DNA from: an uncultured Acidobacteriota bacterium
Lineage (GTDB): Bacteria; Acidobacteriota; Terriglobia; UBA7540
Direction of reading: 5' to 3'
DNA length: 64,000 nucleotides
Assembly: GCA_963804995.1 (NCBI GenBank)
Contig: CAWDSK010000001.1
Location: forward strand, 96,001-160,000
The position numbers were made by a program. This document shows, piece by piece, positions 39,201 through 45,200 of the stretch. Positions within the stretch are counted from its first letter, which is position 1. The number at the start of each line of letters is the position of its first letter.

Positions 39201-42200
39201 ACGGATTGCAGTCTTTACAGGATCGAGAAGTCACTGATGGTGCGTATGCTCCACGAGCAGCACGGAATCTCGGAATTGTTCATCACGCACCTGCTTACCC
39301 GCAACATTCGATTTGAAGAGGATCTGGTCGACCAGCTTTTCAGCTCCAGCGAAAAGCGCCTGGCCCGGATTCTCTTATTGCTTGCGCATTTTGGCAAGGA
39401 AAGCAGAACCGAAACTCTCCATCCCGGAATCAATCAGGAACACCTGGCCCAAATGGTCGGTACCACCCGGTCACGGGTCAGTCATTACATGAACAAGTTC
39501 CGGACGCTGGGCTTTCTCGATTACACGGGCAACGGCGCGTTGACGGTTAACAATGGCCTCTTGAGCGTACTCCTGAGCGACTAACATACGATAACCGGCA
39601 TAGGTATTACCGGCCCGCTTAGCCTCCCATCCTGAGGGGGGCATGGCGGAGCGAAGTATCTCGCTTGGAGGGCTGGTCGCGGTAGGGATACCGGTTGCCC
39701 GGTACCCTGTCCTTCGCCAATACACGATAATGCTGCATTCGCTGCAAAAGTGGCCGCCCAAAGACCGCAGTCTCCGCTTGTCGCTCTGTGCCTTGGTCTC
39801 TGGTCCGAGAGGTCATCGGGCTGGTCGCGCCTTTGCGCCGACAAGCACCCGCCTGGCGCGAGACAGGTTGCAGTTTTCGAGGTAAGGGAACGGCAGGCCG
39901 ATGCTGCCCTCGGTCAGGCAGCGCGCCGTTCGTAGCGATGGTGCAGGCCACCGACCTGCGGGATCTCCACCATCTCTCCGGCCTCCGGTCCCTGCACGAC
40001 CCGAGGGGTCGGAGCGTCCTTGGCTAAGGAGAGGTGAGTTCTTGAACCCAGATAGTAATCGAAATAACTTTTCAGGATTCGTCGCAGATGCTTCTCTCCC
40101 AGCACGATCACGTGATCCACGTACTCACGTCGGATGGAGCCCACCAGCCTTTCCGCAAACGGATTGGATCAGGTCGTCAACTACACACCATAGAGACTAT
40201 TCAAAACGACGTTTCCGAGTAACTCACCCTTACCATCCACTGTTCCAACGTGAATTCGAATGGGTGGACTACCGCCAGAACTGGGGGGAGGACCGAGTGT
40301 ATTTCTACGACGAAGGAGGCCAGTTGACCTCGCTACCGGCGCGGTGGACGAGTGTCGTGGGGGAGGACCCATTCGTGGTCATAGGGGGAGGCCGCTCGTA
40401 TTTTCGCGTTGAGGACCTGATTGAATTGGTGCGTTTGGTGGAGGGTTTACGGTCCTGAAGCCCCGGAAGGTCTGTAAAGGGAATTACGCCGTTTGTGTTA
40501 AAGGGATTATGTCGGAGCTTGAGCCGAAGTCCAGAGTTTTCGGTGGGTGTGTGAGTGCAATATCCGCTTATTGTGCAACACAAATTCGGGTCGGAGGATA
40601 GAAAAGGCTTGACAGGGAGCAAGAGAATGTATATAATTAACATTACACTCGTTTGCCGGATTTGCTCCGGAGGAGCCCATGTCCCCTTCCTCACGCCACG
40701 ATGCCAAGCGCCATATCCTGCGCTCCCAAGGTACCTTGAATCCCCGCCCGCAGGAGGTGGCCCACGCCCTGTTCCAGGACAGCGACTTCTTCAATCCCCG
40801 GGACTTGCTGCAGGTCAAGTACGAGATGCTGCGCCAAGTGAGGGTCGAAAACCAAGCGGTGAGCCAAGCGGCGGAGGCTTTTGGTTTCTCCAGACCCTCC
40901 TTCTACCTCGCCCAGGCGGGCTTCGTAGCCAGGGGACTCGCAGGATTGATTCCCCAGAAACGGGGACCTCGGCACGCCCACAAGCTCACGGCCGAGGTAA
41001 TGGAGTTCGTCCGGCAGGCCCGAGCTGCCGAACCCTCCTTGCGGAGCGAGGAACTGGCGGCCCGGGTGAAGAAAGCCTTCCGTCTACGGGTCCATCCTCG
41101 CAGCTTGGAGCGCCGGCTTCGGCAGCAGCAAAAAAAACGACGTTGAGCGACCCTCCCGTTGCTCCCCTGATGGCCCAGGAGGGGATCGTAAACCAATATG
41201 AGGAACTCCGGCGACAAGTGCGGGGTGAGTTAGGCGGCAGGCGCGGAGCCTTGGGCCTGGCGCTGTTTATTCGCCAGGGGATGAAAGGCTGGATGGAAGC
41301 CTGGTCCCACTGCCTGCCGGGTGGGATTCCGATGAAACCCCAGAATCCGTCCGGCCCTGAGGAGAGGGTTCCTCTCGATCTGCACACGGAAGTGGTTACG
41401 ATTCTGGCGAGCATGGTACTTCACAGTCGGCCGGAGGTGAGAGGATGAGAACCGAAATGCCGCAGAAGGTTCAAGCCCACCATTTGAAACGCGACGCCTA
41501 CCTGTATATCCGGCAGTCCACGCTTCGGCAGGTCTTTGAGAATACCGAGAGCACCCAGCGCCAGTACGCGTTACGCCAACAGGCCGTGGCCCTGGGCTGG
41601 CCTTTGGAACGGATCATCGTGATCGACAACGATCAAGGCCAGTCGGGAGCTTCGGCGGTAGACCGAGAGGGATTTCAAAGGTTGGTGAGTGAAGTGGGGA
41701 TGGGGCGAGCAGGGATCGTTCTGGGTCTCGAGGTGTCGCGCCTGGCGCGCAACTCCACGGACTGGCATCGACTGCTGGAGATCTGCGCGCTCACCGACAC
41801 GCTCATTTTGGATGAAGATGGCATCTACGACCCGGCGCACTTTAATGACCGCCTGCTGTTGGGGCTGAAAGGCACGATGAGCGAGGCGGAACTGCACGTG
41901 CTGCGAGCCCGGTTGCGAGGCGGAATCCTCAGCAAAGCTCGGCGCGGTGAGTTGGAGATCCCACCTCCGGTCGGCTTGGTCTATAACGGCTCGGGGCAAC
42001 TCGTTCTCGATCCGGACCAGCAGGTGCAACAGGGCCTTCGACTCTTGTTTGAAACCTTCCGTCGTACGGGATCCGCCCTGGCCACGGTGAAGGCCTTTCG
42101 CCAGCAGGGGCTGCTGTTTCCCCGCCGCCTGCGGGCGGGGCCCCACCAAGGAGAGTTGGTATGGGTGGAACTTGTTCACAGCCATGTCCTGCGCGTTTTG

Positions 42201-45200
42201 CACAATCCTCGGTATGCCGGGGCCTACGTCTTTGGCCGGAGTCAGACGCGCAAGAAGCTGGAGGGTGGCGTGACGGTGAAGTGGTTGCCTCGCGAGGAGT
42301 GGGACACTTGCCTTCCTGGGGCCCATGCGGGTTACCTCTCCTGGGAAGAATATGAGAGCAATCAGCGGCGGTTACGGGAATCCGCGCAAGCTTGGGGTCC
42401 CGACCGTCGTCAAAGCCCTCCGCGGGAAGGTCCAGCGCTTCTGCAGGGATTAGTGATCTGTGGCCGCTGTGGGAATCGGATGACCGTGCGTTATCATGTT
42501 CACCGGTCACGCCTGGCCCCCCATTATGTGTGTCAGCGGTACGGTATCGAACACGCTCAAACCATCTGCCAGACGGTTCCTGGAGCGGGTATCGACCAGG
42601 CCATCGGGGAACTGCTGATCGAAGTGGTCACTCCGTTAGCCCTGGAGGTGGCGCTGAGCGTGCAGCAAGAACTTCAGTCTCGTTGGGAAGAAGCGGATCG
42701 GTTGCGCCAAACCCAAGTCGAGCGCGCCCGGTATGAGGCGGAGCTGGCCGAGCGGCGCTACTTGCGTTGCGATCCCGACAACCGGCTCGTGGCGGATTCG
42801 CTCGAGGCCGACTGGAACCACAAGCTGCGTGCTCTGGGAGAGGCTCAGCAAGAGTATCAACGTCAACGTCAGGTCGACCGTGGGTTGTGTCGGGAAGAGG
42901 AACGCGCTCAGATTTTTGCCCTGGCCACAGACTTCCCTCGGCTGTGGCGCGATGCGAAAACGCCACATCGAGAACGGAAGCGTATGGTCCGCCTTCTATT
43001 GGAAGACGTCACGTTGACCCGCAACCATGAGATCACGCTTCAGATCCGCTTCAAGGGGGGAGCTACAAAGACCCTGCATTTGCCCATCCCCCTCAATGCC
43101 TGGAAACAGCGCACCACCAAGCCGGAGGTGGTGGCGGAGATCGACCGGCTCCTGGATCAACGTACCGATCGGCAGATCGCTAGCCTGCTGAATGAACGCG
43201 GCTGGCTCTCGGGCGAAGGCAGGCCCTTCAGCCCTCACATCGTCGCGCGCATACGGCGTAACTATGCCTTGAAGAGCGGTTACACTCGCCTACGCGGAGC
43301 CGGCCTGTTGACCCTGCAAGAGATGGCTAAGCTGCTCGGCATCTCCACCGGGTGGGTGAAAGTCTGGCGGGACCATGGTCTGTTAAGAGCTCAAGCCTAC
43401 AACGAGAAAAACGAGTGTTTATATGAACACCCCGGCGATGATCCGCCGCGCAAGATGCAAGGGACGAAGCTCGCTGCCAGGCAGCGATTCTTCGAGGACC
43501 CCTCGAATCATACCAATGAGGTGCAGTATGAAGCATAAGCCTTTTGCCAAGGGCTCTGCGGCGCGGTCAGGACTTCGGTGATGTCCATGTCGCTGAGAAG
43601 ATTGCGGAAACCTTCCCCGTAGATCTGGTCCCGGTCTCGGATCAAATAGCGTGGCGCCGTGTCTTCGGGGAACGCTTCCAGGATTTGCTGAGTGGCCCAA
43701 GCCGCCGTCGGATGCTCGGTCACGTTGAAATGCACGACACGCCGGCGATGATGAGCCAGCACGACAAAAACGAATAACACTCGAAAACTGACCGTGGGCA
43801 CCGTGAAGAAGTCAACCGAGACCAAACCCTGAACATGGTTATTCAAGAAGGCCTTCCAAGTCTGGGAAGGTGGCTTCCGGCACTTGGGCATCAATCGGGA
43901 AACCGTGCGCTCGGAAACCTCCATTCCCAGCTTGAGCAGTTCCCCGTGAATGCGAGGGGCGCCCCAATACGGGTTCGCGGTCGCCATCTGCTTGACCAGG
44001 GCTCGGACTTCTGAACTGAGTTGTGGTCGACCTGAACTTCCCCGCTGCGAGATCCTCGCCCAATAGATTCGGAAGGCCTTTTGCTGCCAGCCGACAACAG
44101 TATCACCGTTCACCACATGCAAGGCCTGTCGCCAAGGGGCCCAGACTCGGGAAAGCACCACCCAAAACAATCGATCTTTCCTCTTCAGTCTCGGCACGCC
44201 CTTCCTTCTCTTTAGCACTCCCAGCTGTTGTCGCAAAGCCAGATTTTCCAAGGCCAAGTCACGGCGTTCTCTAAGAGCTGCAATTATGAAAATGACCAGC
44301 CATCGTAATGTCTCGATCATGGGTTGGAGTGTGGAGGTAACGACCTGAATAATCAACGGATTTCGAGCCGATGGAGTTTTGGCGATGGACAGCTGGCTCG
44401 AACGAGCGACCTGGGGAAAGTATCTCCTGATCCCGCCTGACCAGGGGCCGGACGCCCTGGGCGACAGCAATCTCTTGGCCCTCGCGAGCCGTATCACTAG
44501 CCGGTACTACTTCGGCCTCGGCACCGCCGCAGCGCACTATGGGCTGACAACTCAGCACCGCAACGTGATCTTTGTTGTAACGCCGCAGCGCCCGCGCGCG
44601 CGCACCGTCGGAGAATCGCGGGTCCGGATCGTCAATCAGGCGGAGAGCAAGTTCTTCGGATTTGAGCCGGTCGACGTGCTCGGCTACAAGGTGATGATCT
44701 CGGACCGCGAAAAGACTGCCATCGACTGTATTGATCACCCACCACTCGCCGGAGGCGTGGGGGAGGCCGCCACCATTCTTGCCACCGCGACTCGCCGCTT
44801 CGACTGGAACAAAGCTGCTGATTACCTCGAACGGATAGGCACCGGCGCGCTGGTGCGCCGATTCGGCTGGCTGGCCGACCACGTCAAGGCGGATATTCCG
44901 CCCTCCACACGCGAGCGCCTGCTCAGGTTGGCGGCGCGAAGCCGCAAAACGTGGCTCGGCGCCGCTCCCGAACACGCTATGCCGGGCGCAATCGGTTATG
45001 ACGAGACATGGCGCCTGTTCGTGAATGTTTCGCGCGAAGAGCTGCAAGGCAGCGTCGGCCTCGGACAGCGGAAAACGGTCAGGGGAGGTGCGTAGCCATG
45101 CTTACGCAGCCCCAGGTTCAGCGCTATGCCATCGAATCCGGCCTTCGCAACATCATGATCGCGGAAAAGGAAGTGGTGCTGACGTCTCTGCTGCAGGTTC

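What a model noticed while it worked through the whole genome (the two positions that open the first line are those of the whole stretch)
40165..43541. Serine-recombinase element that parasitises insertion sequences by integrating at one conserved codon of DDE (rve) trans [...]
A 3,377-bp four-gene element (DUF5372, HTH, 92-aa protein, 697-aa large serine recombinase of the y4bA type) is present in four copies, each integrated at the same Asn codon (SPWQ^N...E-R, four codons before the catalytic Glu) of a different IS transposase gene. Homologs in several phyla use the equivalent codon in IS3, IS481, IS21 and ISNCY transposases, so the family is a dedicated hyperparasite of DDE insertion sequences.
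Evidence so far: Copies at C1:136165-139541, C6:304398-307774, C6:764623-768000 and C6:882541-885917 are 99.85-99.94% identical while their host flanks are only 40-84% alike; all four junctions split SPWQ|N-x-x-x-E-R. Of 80 related loci, 38 distinct right junctions could be read and all 38 end on the AA of an Asn/Lys codon, nearly all after transposase motifs such as SRKGNPWD, GRWVD, SPQA, SPQT, DPDR. NCBIfam on 14 of the cut hosts names IS3, IS481, IS21 and ISNCY, cut at the same model position in each family (313, 228, 225, 235; call 149). In about 20 loci both junctions rebuild an open transposase frame; only AA, the Glu codon GA at +10 and a few bases are invariant, mean site identity 45%. 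Searches found [...]
(Added by a program. Inside this text positions count along the whole contig: contig position 96,001 is position 1 of the stretch shown here. "Call 12" and the like, gene names such as g00115 and contig names such as C1 are that model's own, and its searches are not shown. The text may have been shortened before it was handed on; [...] marks where a part breaks off. The agent that wrote the report below was given it as the finding of a first reader that could run no searches.)

Follow-up and report, generated by a model that had tools for sequence, protein, structure and literature searches.

The report
Recombinase element parasitising transposase genes
A small bacterial jumping element uses a serine recombinase to insert itself, almost always, at one conserved codon beside the active site of other jumping genes' transposases, so it lives as a parasite of parasites; one member seems to have been seen nested in insertion sequences in 1997, but the precise targeting appears undescribed.

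Summary
Confirmed. Four 99.85-99.94% identical copies of a 3,378-bp (circle) four-gene large-serine-recombinase element each split a DDE transposase gene at the AA of the Asn codon four before the catalytic Glu; only that AA is duplicated, and near-identical empty hosts exist in the same genome. Junctions called from element sequence alone gave Asn/Lys in 66 and Glu at +4 in 65 of 67 distinct sites (IS3, IS481, IS21, ISNCY). Three corrections. (1) It is the y4bA-D unit of Sinorhizobium fredii NGR234 (nine copies), probably NGRIS-4, recalled as reported in 1997 to sit in other ISs (paper not readable here). (2) Not DDE-only: in a host-blind metagenome sample 13 of 80 ends sat in IS91-type, IS110 or DUF3489 genes with other cores, and 3 of 56 clean genome sites were outside IS genes. 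(3) The DUF5372 gene gets its start codon only in the excised circle (49 of 53 elements); no circle was found. The shared target motif occurs about 9,600 times in this genome, so why about 95% of insertions hit ISs is unexplained. This scan noted the family and the split gene before on other genomes.

The parts
40166..43541 (+). the element proper (3,376 bp; 3,378-bp circle with one core)
   Evidence: empty-site joint skipping exactly 3,378 bp in 4 of 4 runs laid
40164..40165 (-). core dinucleotide (AA in transposase sense), left junction; first two bases of the host Asn codon
43542..43543 (-). core dinucleotide (AA in transposase sense), right junction
40166..40187 (+). left arm of attP; symmetric with the right arm at 1-2, 5, 8 and 15-22 bp from the core
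   Evidence: (symmetry 0.6-1.0 at 15-19 over 52 elements)
43520..43541 (+). right arm of attP, overlapping the recombinase stop codon
43518..43530 (+). Shine-Dalgarno-like hexamer (43518-43523) and ATG (43528-43530) that open the DUF5372 gene only when the two ends are joined
   Evidence: start codon at -14 or -11 in 53 of 53 distinct elements
40165..40458 (+). body of the DUF5372 gene, no start codon of its own in this copy; 102 aa in the circle; SH3/KOW-like barrel plus helix
40609..40637 (+). perfect sigma-70 consensus promoter (12 of 12) between DUF5372 body and HTH gene
   Evidence: at least 10 of 12 in 52 of 66 distinct homologous spacers
40679..41146 (+). 155-aa bipartite HTH protein resembling the N-terminal DNA-binding domain of IS630/IS481 transposases
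   Evidence: (E 7e-11, 6e-10, below cut-off)
41170..41448 (+). 92-aa protein of no known family, ATGA overlap with the recombinase; candidate directionality factor (inference)
41445..43538 (+). 697-aa large serine recombinase (Resolvase, Recombinase, Zn ribbon, extra C-terminal HTH); invariant Y21-x-R23-Q-S25 and Cys 339/342/363/375
43544..44320 (-). 5' part of the interrupted host transposase (IS481/IS3-like rve), ending SPWQ
39914..40163 (-). 3' part of the host transposase, carrying the catalytic Glu four codons after the cut
39707..39728 (.). terminal inverted repeat of the host IS (22 nt, 82%)
44371..44392 (.). other terminal inverted repeat of the host IS
26987..29620 (-). second, two-gene cousin element (2,632-bp circle, core TA): split ORF plus 35%-identical recombinase with an internal TAG, in a relic of the same transposase type but at a Tyr codon further downstream

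Best explanation
A cargo-less integrative element moved by a serine integrase. Shown from sequence: the recombinase joins a symmetric attP (the two element ends) to a degenerate, asymmetric attB by a 2-bp core exchange, with no other duplication; the usual attB is the stretch of DDE transposase genes coding N/K-x-x-x-E, whose first codon supplies the AA core and whose catalytic Glu codon supplies a GAR read 11-13 bp away. Because the host cannot change those codons freely, one recombinase serves IS3, IS481, IS21 and ISNCY alike and finds dispensable, multi-copy, plasmid-rich landing sites in many phyla. Core changes (CG, CA, AT, GA, TA) and retargeting to IS91-type, IS110 and DUF3489 genes have arisen in sub-lineages. 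Inferred: a strong promoter drives HTH, 92-aa protein and recombinase; excision gives a circle in which the transcript runs through attP into DUF5372, which is then made only while the element is out, and most likely switches the system from excision to integration. Targeting is at least partly direct DNA reading by the recombinase (my odds that this, with shape or longer-range reading, is the main source of specificity: about 55%).
For: Domain set and invariant catalytic Ser. Only the core is duplicated; intact twins of two hosts in the same genome, 99/96% and 95/100% identical to the flanks; empty-site joint of 3,378 bp in 4 of 4 runs. Junctions called from element sequence only: core TT in 77 of 78 right and 75 of 76 left calls; N42/K24/R1 and Glu at +4 in 65 of 67 distinct arms; 53 of 63 distinct two-arm sites rebuild one IS type. 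L066 has CG at both ends and an Arg codon in the host, as expected when only core matching matters. Identical elements sit in hosts of different IS families with attB identity as low as 31-37% and in IS copies 3-6% diverged, so insertions are independent. Three non-IS sites keep AA, G+2 and GAR, one on the antisense strand of an unrelated gene, and score in the top 0.06-0.14% of AA sites. attP arms are symmetric, attB arms are not. Split gene: start at -14/-11 in 53 of 53, open into DUF5372 in 49 of 53, background 29 of 795 codons. Six more isolate plasmids fit (five right junctions all TT; left IS3- or IS21-type N/K-x-x-x-E in five).
Against: No circle seen: attP patterns covering 28 and 35 of 52 known elements found 0 matches in JGI metagenomes and IMG/VR, 0 of 80 right ends were attP, and no back-joint was listed in 4 runs of contigs. 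The motif shared by 49 of 56 sites occurs 9,578 times in this genome and a leave-own-out matrix over +/-13 bp leaves 30-966 equal or better sites, nearly all outside IS genes, so simple motif reading does not explain the IS bias. 13 of 53 elements have an in-frame internal start codon before the conserved HP motif, and the start codon lies inside the att arm, so part of its conservation may reflect binding. 7 of 63 sites have discordant halves. No directionality factor identified.
Confidence: 0.8

Rival explanations
1. Accessory-guided targeting: the recombinase reads only a loose motif, and an element protein (the circle-only DUF5372 product, or the transposase-like HTH protein) brings the integration complex to insertion sequences.
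For: Specificity gap. The HTH protein resembles IS630/IS481 transposase DNA-binding domains (bipartite matches to Tc3, SETMAR, IstA, TnsB at Z 5.6-6.6, not above unrelated rows). DUF5372 is made only when integration is due and a split ORF is the one accessory shared with the two-gene cousin, which also sits in a transposase relic.
Against: Hosts belong to families with unrelated ends; the cousin lacks the HTH gene; off-target sites keep the DNA motif; a +/-30-bp matrix ranks the four own sites among the top 1-2 of 827,195 AA sites, although that range includes host-family signal that off-target sites lack.
Confidence: 0.25
2. Relaxed integrase plus filtering: the element inserts at many loose-motif sites, and the IS bias comes from loss of harmful insertions and from nested copies riding along when the host IS is moved in trans.
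For: Off-target copies exist (L027, L028, L038; two of three copies in one Thermoleophilia genome). Several nested copies have 100% identical hosts (L052/L053/L058, L087/L089), compatible with co-transposition.
Against: Near-identical, hence recent, copies are 4 of 4 (this genome) and 8 of 8 (NGR234) in IS genes of different sequence or family; most of thousands of loose sites would not be lethal; identical elements in 3-6% diverged hosts exclude co-transposition for those.
Confidence: 0.15
3. Assembly artefact or chance nesting in IS hot spots.
For: Seven discordant sites are probably chimeras across the 3.3-kb repeat or rearrangements between copies.
Against: Same codon in complete isolate replicons, empty twins, independent metagenome sample.
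Confidence: 0.01

Closest known systems
y4bA-y4bD unit of Sinorhizobium fredii NGR234; probably NGRIS-4 of Perret et al. 1997 (J Bacteriol 179:7488; PMID 9393715)
   Same: Same four genes in the same order, recombinase 54.6% identical, 3,320-bp circle, 8 near-identical copies plus one at 78% on pNGR234a/b, all in ISNCY or IS21 transposases at the Lys codon four before Glu. From memory, the 1997 abstract says all nine NGRIS-4 copies had transposed into other ISs.
   Different: I saw only the reference entry; the text was not held, so the name match and the quoted statement are recalled. As recalled it was treated as an IS, without serine-integrase mechanism, codon target, breadth or split gene; the full text may say more.
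Large serine integrases (phiC31, Bxb1, SPbeta SprA type) and the LSR catalogue of Durrant et al. (PMC10083194)
   Same: Domain architecture, 2-bp core, symmetric attP at the 3' end of the gene. The family is in their table as cluster11023 (53 proteins, multiple phyla).
   Different: Their entry lists no target gene and an att pair that reads like a tRNA site (my reading), not a transposase; transposase activity among targets was 6 of 1,069 against 2 of 908, FDR 0.37. Here attB is highly degenerate and asymmetric, the protein is about 700 aa with an extra HTH, and there is no phage or cargo.
Multi-targeting LSR transposons (TndX/Tn5397, TnpX/Tn4451, Cp36)
   Same: Many different target genes per recombinase; circle intermediate (recalled).
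   Different: No DUF4368 hit; targets are one functional class at one codon rather than loose A/T-rich sites (recalled); three accessory genes; split gene.
Other elements that target mobile DNA: group II intron RmInt1 in ISRm2011-2, IS4321/IS5075 in Tn21 ends, RIT elements (all recalled; RIT passages read in PMC10214605 and PMC5737581 give no target)
   Same: Use of another mobile element as a safe landing site.
   Different: Different chemistry; each is tied to one host element, not to a catalytic codon shared by four IS families.
Genes split or rebuilt by att recombination (mycobacteriophage BPs repressor, SSV1-type integrases, IS circle-junction promoters; recalled)
   Same: Recombination state changes a gene product.
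   Different: Here the start codon and ribosome site of an accessory gene sit at the far end, translationally coupled to the recombinase stop.

Membership tests
Large serine recombinase / serine integrase | Resolvase + Recombinase + zinc-ribbon domains with catalytic Ser | tested here: met
Large serine recombinase / serine integrase | 2-bp core shared by attP and attB, no target duplication beyond it | tested here: met
   matched core change in L066
Large serine recombinase / serine integrase | attP with symmetric arms including a distal motif | tested here: met
Large serine recombinase / serine integrase | excised circle carrying attP | tested here: inconclusive
   none found; assemblies drop rare forms
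Large serine recombinase / serine integrase | recombination directionality factor | not testable with these tools
y4bA-D unit of NGR234 | DUF5372, HTH, about 90-aa gene, recombinase in this order, about 3.3 kb | tested here: met
NGRIS-4 (Perret 1997) | identity of the y4bA-D unit with the published name; nine copies nested in ISs | tested here: inconclusive
   nine copies, all nested, fit my recall; paper not held
Classical insertion sequence (DDE) | DDE transposase, terminal inverted repeats, target duplication | tested here: not met
   no transposase in the element; no end-to-end inverted repeat among the 25 longest; only the 2-bp core repeated
Multi-targeting LSR clade (TndX/Cp36) | DUF4368 domain | tested here: not met
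   no such Pfam hit at E <= 0.01
Multi-targeting LSR clade (TndX/Cp36) | one recombinase in several target gene clusters | tested here: met
   identical elements in ISNCY and IS21, or ISNCY and IS3 hosts
ICE / IME / prophage | relaxase, conjugation or virion genes | tested here: not met
   four ORFs only; DUF5372 absent from 50,697 phage records; right-end motif absent from IMG/VR

The most novel reading that the evidence does not exclude
A family of serine-integrase elements specialised on the genes of other mobile elements as a class (DDE, HUH and DEDD transposases alike), retargeted by changing core and read-out, in which a protein made only from the excised circle acts as a target selector that steers a loosely specific recombinase to those genes: an accessory-guided serine integrase.
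Probability: 0.18. Interest if true: 0.9.

Novelty: new variant of a known kind. Interest (0 to 1): 0.68.

Why it matters
It turns an old oddity (an element always found inside other ISs) into a testable mechanism: an integrase that has locked on to codons its hosts cannot easily change, and so inactivates IS3, IS21, IS481 and ISNCY copies across phyla and on rhizobial symbiosis plasmids. It offers natural pairs of close recombinases with different targets and cores for studying how serine integrases are retargeted, an unusually degenerate attB that current recognition models do not obviously explain, and a built-in excision sensor. Pipelines mis-assign these sites (the family's entry in PMC10083194 lists another att) and annotate DUF5372 with a wrong start.

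Tried and rejected
Circle search: attP patterns gave 0 in JGI metagenomes and IMG/VR; no back-joint in 4 runs of contigs; absence from assemblies proves little. No RNA holder listed. Complex prediction of recombinase with DUF5372 was not available, so binding is untested. Fold searches gave no specific match: DUF5372 best Z 5.3, generic SH3/KOW barrels, Foldseek none at E <= 0.001; HTH best Z 6.8. ESM Atlas returned only DUF5372 clusters and nothing for the 92-aa protein. No Rfam match at E <= 0.1 over 39600-44500, so no sign of a known guide RNA. A search of 401 genomes of the phylum for non-T cores found none, and metagenome contigs could not be extended, so the IS110, IS91-type and DUF3489 cases rest on one junction each. 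My first right-junction rule miscalled 5 and missed 16 of 93 loci and was replaced; for NGR234 rows the matrix scored low and three left calls were wrong, so these were fixed from multi-copy comparison. Literature: 'NGRIS-4' 0 papers, 'y4bA' 4 irrelevant, 'DUF5372' 0, 'NGRRS' 10 listed, one opened, combined searches showed nothing on this targeting in their listings; subscription papers, Perret 1997, Mageeney 2020 and Ricker 2013 were not readable and may bear on novelty; bioRxiv supplements are closed. Rejected: classical IS, artefact, pure co-transposition.
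Full report
OBSERVATION. A blastn of window 39000-45000 against the own genome (7.55 Mb, 9 contigs) gave four copies of the element, 99.85-99.94% identical with 2-5 differences per pair; one copy has a frameshift in the recombinase. 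Pfam confirms DUF5372, an HTH protein, a 92-aa protein without a family and a 697-aa large serine recombinase, whose catalytic Ser and four zinc-ribbon Cys are invariant in 38 homologues. In all four copies the flanks are the two halves of an rve transposase on the opposite strand, cut at SPWQ|N-x-x-x-E-R. The AA of the Asn codon stands at both junctions, so the element is 40166-43541 and the circle 3,378 bp. The host IS in the window has 22-nt inverted repeats at 39707-39728 and 44371-44392. Two hosts have intact twins in the same genome (C6:299357, 99% and 96% identical to the flanks of one copy; C6:364422, 95% and 100% to another), and contigs of 4 of 4 public runs laid show the joint that skips exactly 3,378 bp (relatives at 88% or more, contigs only). 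The genome has 24 rve_3 matches, of which 4 are these interrupted ones.

BREADTH, WITH JUNCTIONS CALLED BLIND TO THE HOST. I fetched the best 80 of 512 genome stretches and nine NGR234 copies. Of these 93 loci (with the four own copies), 89 had DUF5372, 91 the HTH and 78 a hit to the 92-aa gene. Weight matrices built from element-side bases only placed the right junction in 78 of 84 non-NGR234 loci (core TT 77, CG 1) and the left in 76 of 80 with a DUF5372 hit (TT 75, CG 1); the misses are contig ends or disrupted copies. NGR234 junctions were set from multi-copy comparison, and one low-scoring left call (L017) was added by hand. Of 67 distinct downstream host arms, the cut codon is Asn in 42, Lys in 24, Arg in 1, and Glu follows at +4 in 65. 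NCBIfam named IS3, IS481, IS21 or ISNCY for 50 of 63 upstream halves, ending at model positions 313, 228, 224-226 and 235; one was GGDEF and 12 had no hit. Downstream halves start at rve_3 position 16 where that model hits. Of 63 distinct sites with both arms, my peptide-motif classing found 53 concordant IS hosts, 3 non-IS sites and 7 discordant pairs, probably chimeras or rearrangements. Six isolate plasmids (Rhodococcus, Aromatoleum, Streptomyces, Bradyrhizobium, Mesorhizobium, Microvirga) fit where junctions could be read; 439 plasmid records hold a recombinase match at E <= 1e-60, cousins included. Loci include several copies per genome, so counts are not independent events.

MECHANISM OF INSERTION. 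L066 has CG at both ends and sits in an SPWQ|R host: a matched core change, as expected for serine integrases, where the core must match but is not read (the rule is established knowledge). attP arms are symmetric at 1-2, 5, 8 and 15-22 bp; attB arms are not. One element can use hosts of different families with attB identity down to 31-37% over 52 bp. In NGR234 the elements differ by 0-1 base while related hosts differ by 3-6%, so those insertions were independent; for 100% identical hosts co-transposition cannot be excluded. Three non-IS sites (a GGDEF gene confirmed on both halves; one antisense to an unrelated gene; one unassigned) keep AA, G+2 and GAR and rank in the top 0.06-0.14% of AA sites for the 13 bp nearest the core but not further out. 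So the recombinase reads DNA directly.

THE SPECIFICITY GAP. The motif shared by 49 of 56 clean sites occurs 9,578 times in this genome. A matrix trained without the own sites leaves 30-966 equal or better sites over +/-13 bp and 8-98 over +/-20 bp, mostly outside IS genes; only at +/-30 bp do the own sites reach the top 1-2 of 827,195, and that range carries host-family signal which off-target sites lack. Yet 53 of 56 clean sites are in IS genes. Longer-range or shape reading, an accessory factor, or selection must supply the rest; sequence alone does not decide.

NOT DDE-ONLY. A scan of JGI metagenomes with the element's right-end motif alone, core left out, hit at least 120 places; 80 were fetched. 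Cores were TT 65, AT 7, TC 4, TA 2, TG 2. Of the 60 TT ends with 24 bp or more of host, 58 fell into DDE motif classes. The four TC ends lie in Y2_Tnp (IS91/ISCR-type) genes (4 of 4 Pfam); three AT ends in IS110 genes (2 of 3 NCBIfam, E 4e-4 and 7e-4); four AT ends in DUF3489 genes (3 of 4 Pfam); the two TA ends in IS91-like C-termini (one weak hit, E 0.015); the two TG ends, one site twice, in an rve gene. On a tree of the C-terminal 152 columns (88 of 109 rows; TA rows too short; root unsure) AT and TC ends each form one clade (100/98 and 100/100), while CG and TG sit among TT rows. These cases rest on one junction each. By eye, L023 sits in an IS66 tnpB-like gene and L024 in a group II intron RT-like gene (labels recalled). 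A second element in this window (26987-29620, minus strand, 2,632-bp circle, core TA) has only a split ORF and a 35%-identical recombinase with an internal stop, and lies in a relic of the same transposase type at a Tyr codon; its end motif match is not expected by chance and its ORF is weakly like DUF5372.

SPLIT GENE. The DUF5372 frame has no start codon inside this copy. A Shine-Dalgarno-like hexamer and ATG overlap the recombinase stop at the other end, in frame across the core. In 53 of 53 distinct elements a start codon lies at -14 or -11 (GTG 31, ATG 21, TTG 1), against 29 of 795 upstream codons; 49 of 53 give an open frame of 101-123 aa; 13 of 53 also have an internal start. A sigma-70 consensus promoter lies after the DUF5372 body (12 of 12 here; 10 or more in 52 of 66). 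The operon is thus permuted: HTH, 92-aa, recombinase, then DUF5372 only in the circle. I noted this before reading that earlier notes of this scan had it. No circle was found. The model of DUF5372 is an SH3/KOW-like barrel without a specific match.

WHAT IS KNOWN. NGR234 carries the same unit nine times. From memory this is NGRIS-4, of which Perret et al. 1997 wrote that all nine copies had transposed into other ISs; I saw only the reference entry. In PMC10083194 I read passages and searched all 8 supplements: the family is cluster11023, with no target gene listed and an att pair that looks like a tRNA site; transposases are not enriched among targets (FDR 0.37). Ten library searches (listings only, passages read in PMC10970691, PMC4339197, PMC10214605, PMC5737581) showed no description of the codon target or the split gene. 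Subscription papers were out of reach.

VERDICT. Real, precise and widespread; a new variant of serine-integrase element with a partial 1997 precedent. The codon targeting is shown by comparative sequence; excision, the role of the accessory genes and the source of the IS bias are inferred. The scan has met this family on at least five other windows, which is not independent evidence. Interest 0.68.

Noticed in passing
window 26987-29620 (-): Two-gene cousin element with split ORF and a recombinase broken by a TAG at codon 211, inserted at a Tyr codon of a transposase relic; its split ORF overlaps the recombinase start.
   Followed up: partly
L066:3733 and 7089: Core CG at both junctions with an Arg codon in the host: natural matched core change.
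   Followed up: yes
L024, L027, L028 (one Thermoleophilia genome): A relaxed lineage: copies in a GGDEF gene, an unassigned site next to a dodecin-like gene and a group II intron RT-like gene (last two labels by eye).
   Followed up: partly
L008, L017, L019, L050, L073: Left and right flanks belong to different IS types: assembly chimeras or recombination between element copies.
   Followed up: no
window 40609-43543: The strong promoter points through the recombinase into the host's 5' half in antisense, and no plus-strand terminator-like site was found; antisense silencing of intact IS copies is conceivable.
   Followed up: no
window 37564-38403 and 38760-39584: Two tandem Crp/Fnr-like genes; this family has many close copies in the genome.
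   Followed up: no
window 44379-45095: AbiEi-type antitoxin gene whose 5' end abuts the host IS end; a 94% copy lies at C1:68901. The host IS has no matching target duplication, suggesting rearranged flanks.
   Followed up: no
window 29600-34200: Cluster of nested and partial transposase genes (rve fragments, a 485-aa transposase-like ORF at 32050-33507).
   Followed up: no
G000 C1:129274, C3:401548, C5:112239, C6:888929, C6:923388, C6:1397911, C9:175260: Seven equal-scoring rve_3 matches in 496-aa frames, none occupied by the element; a test set for why some IS families are not hit.
   Followed up: no
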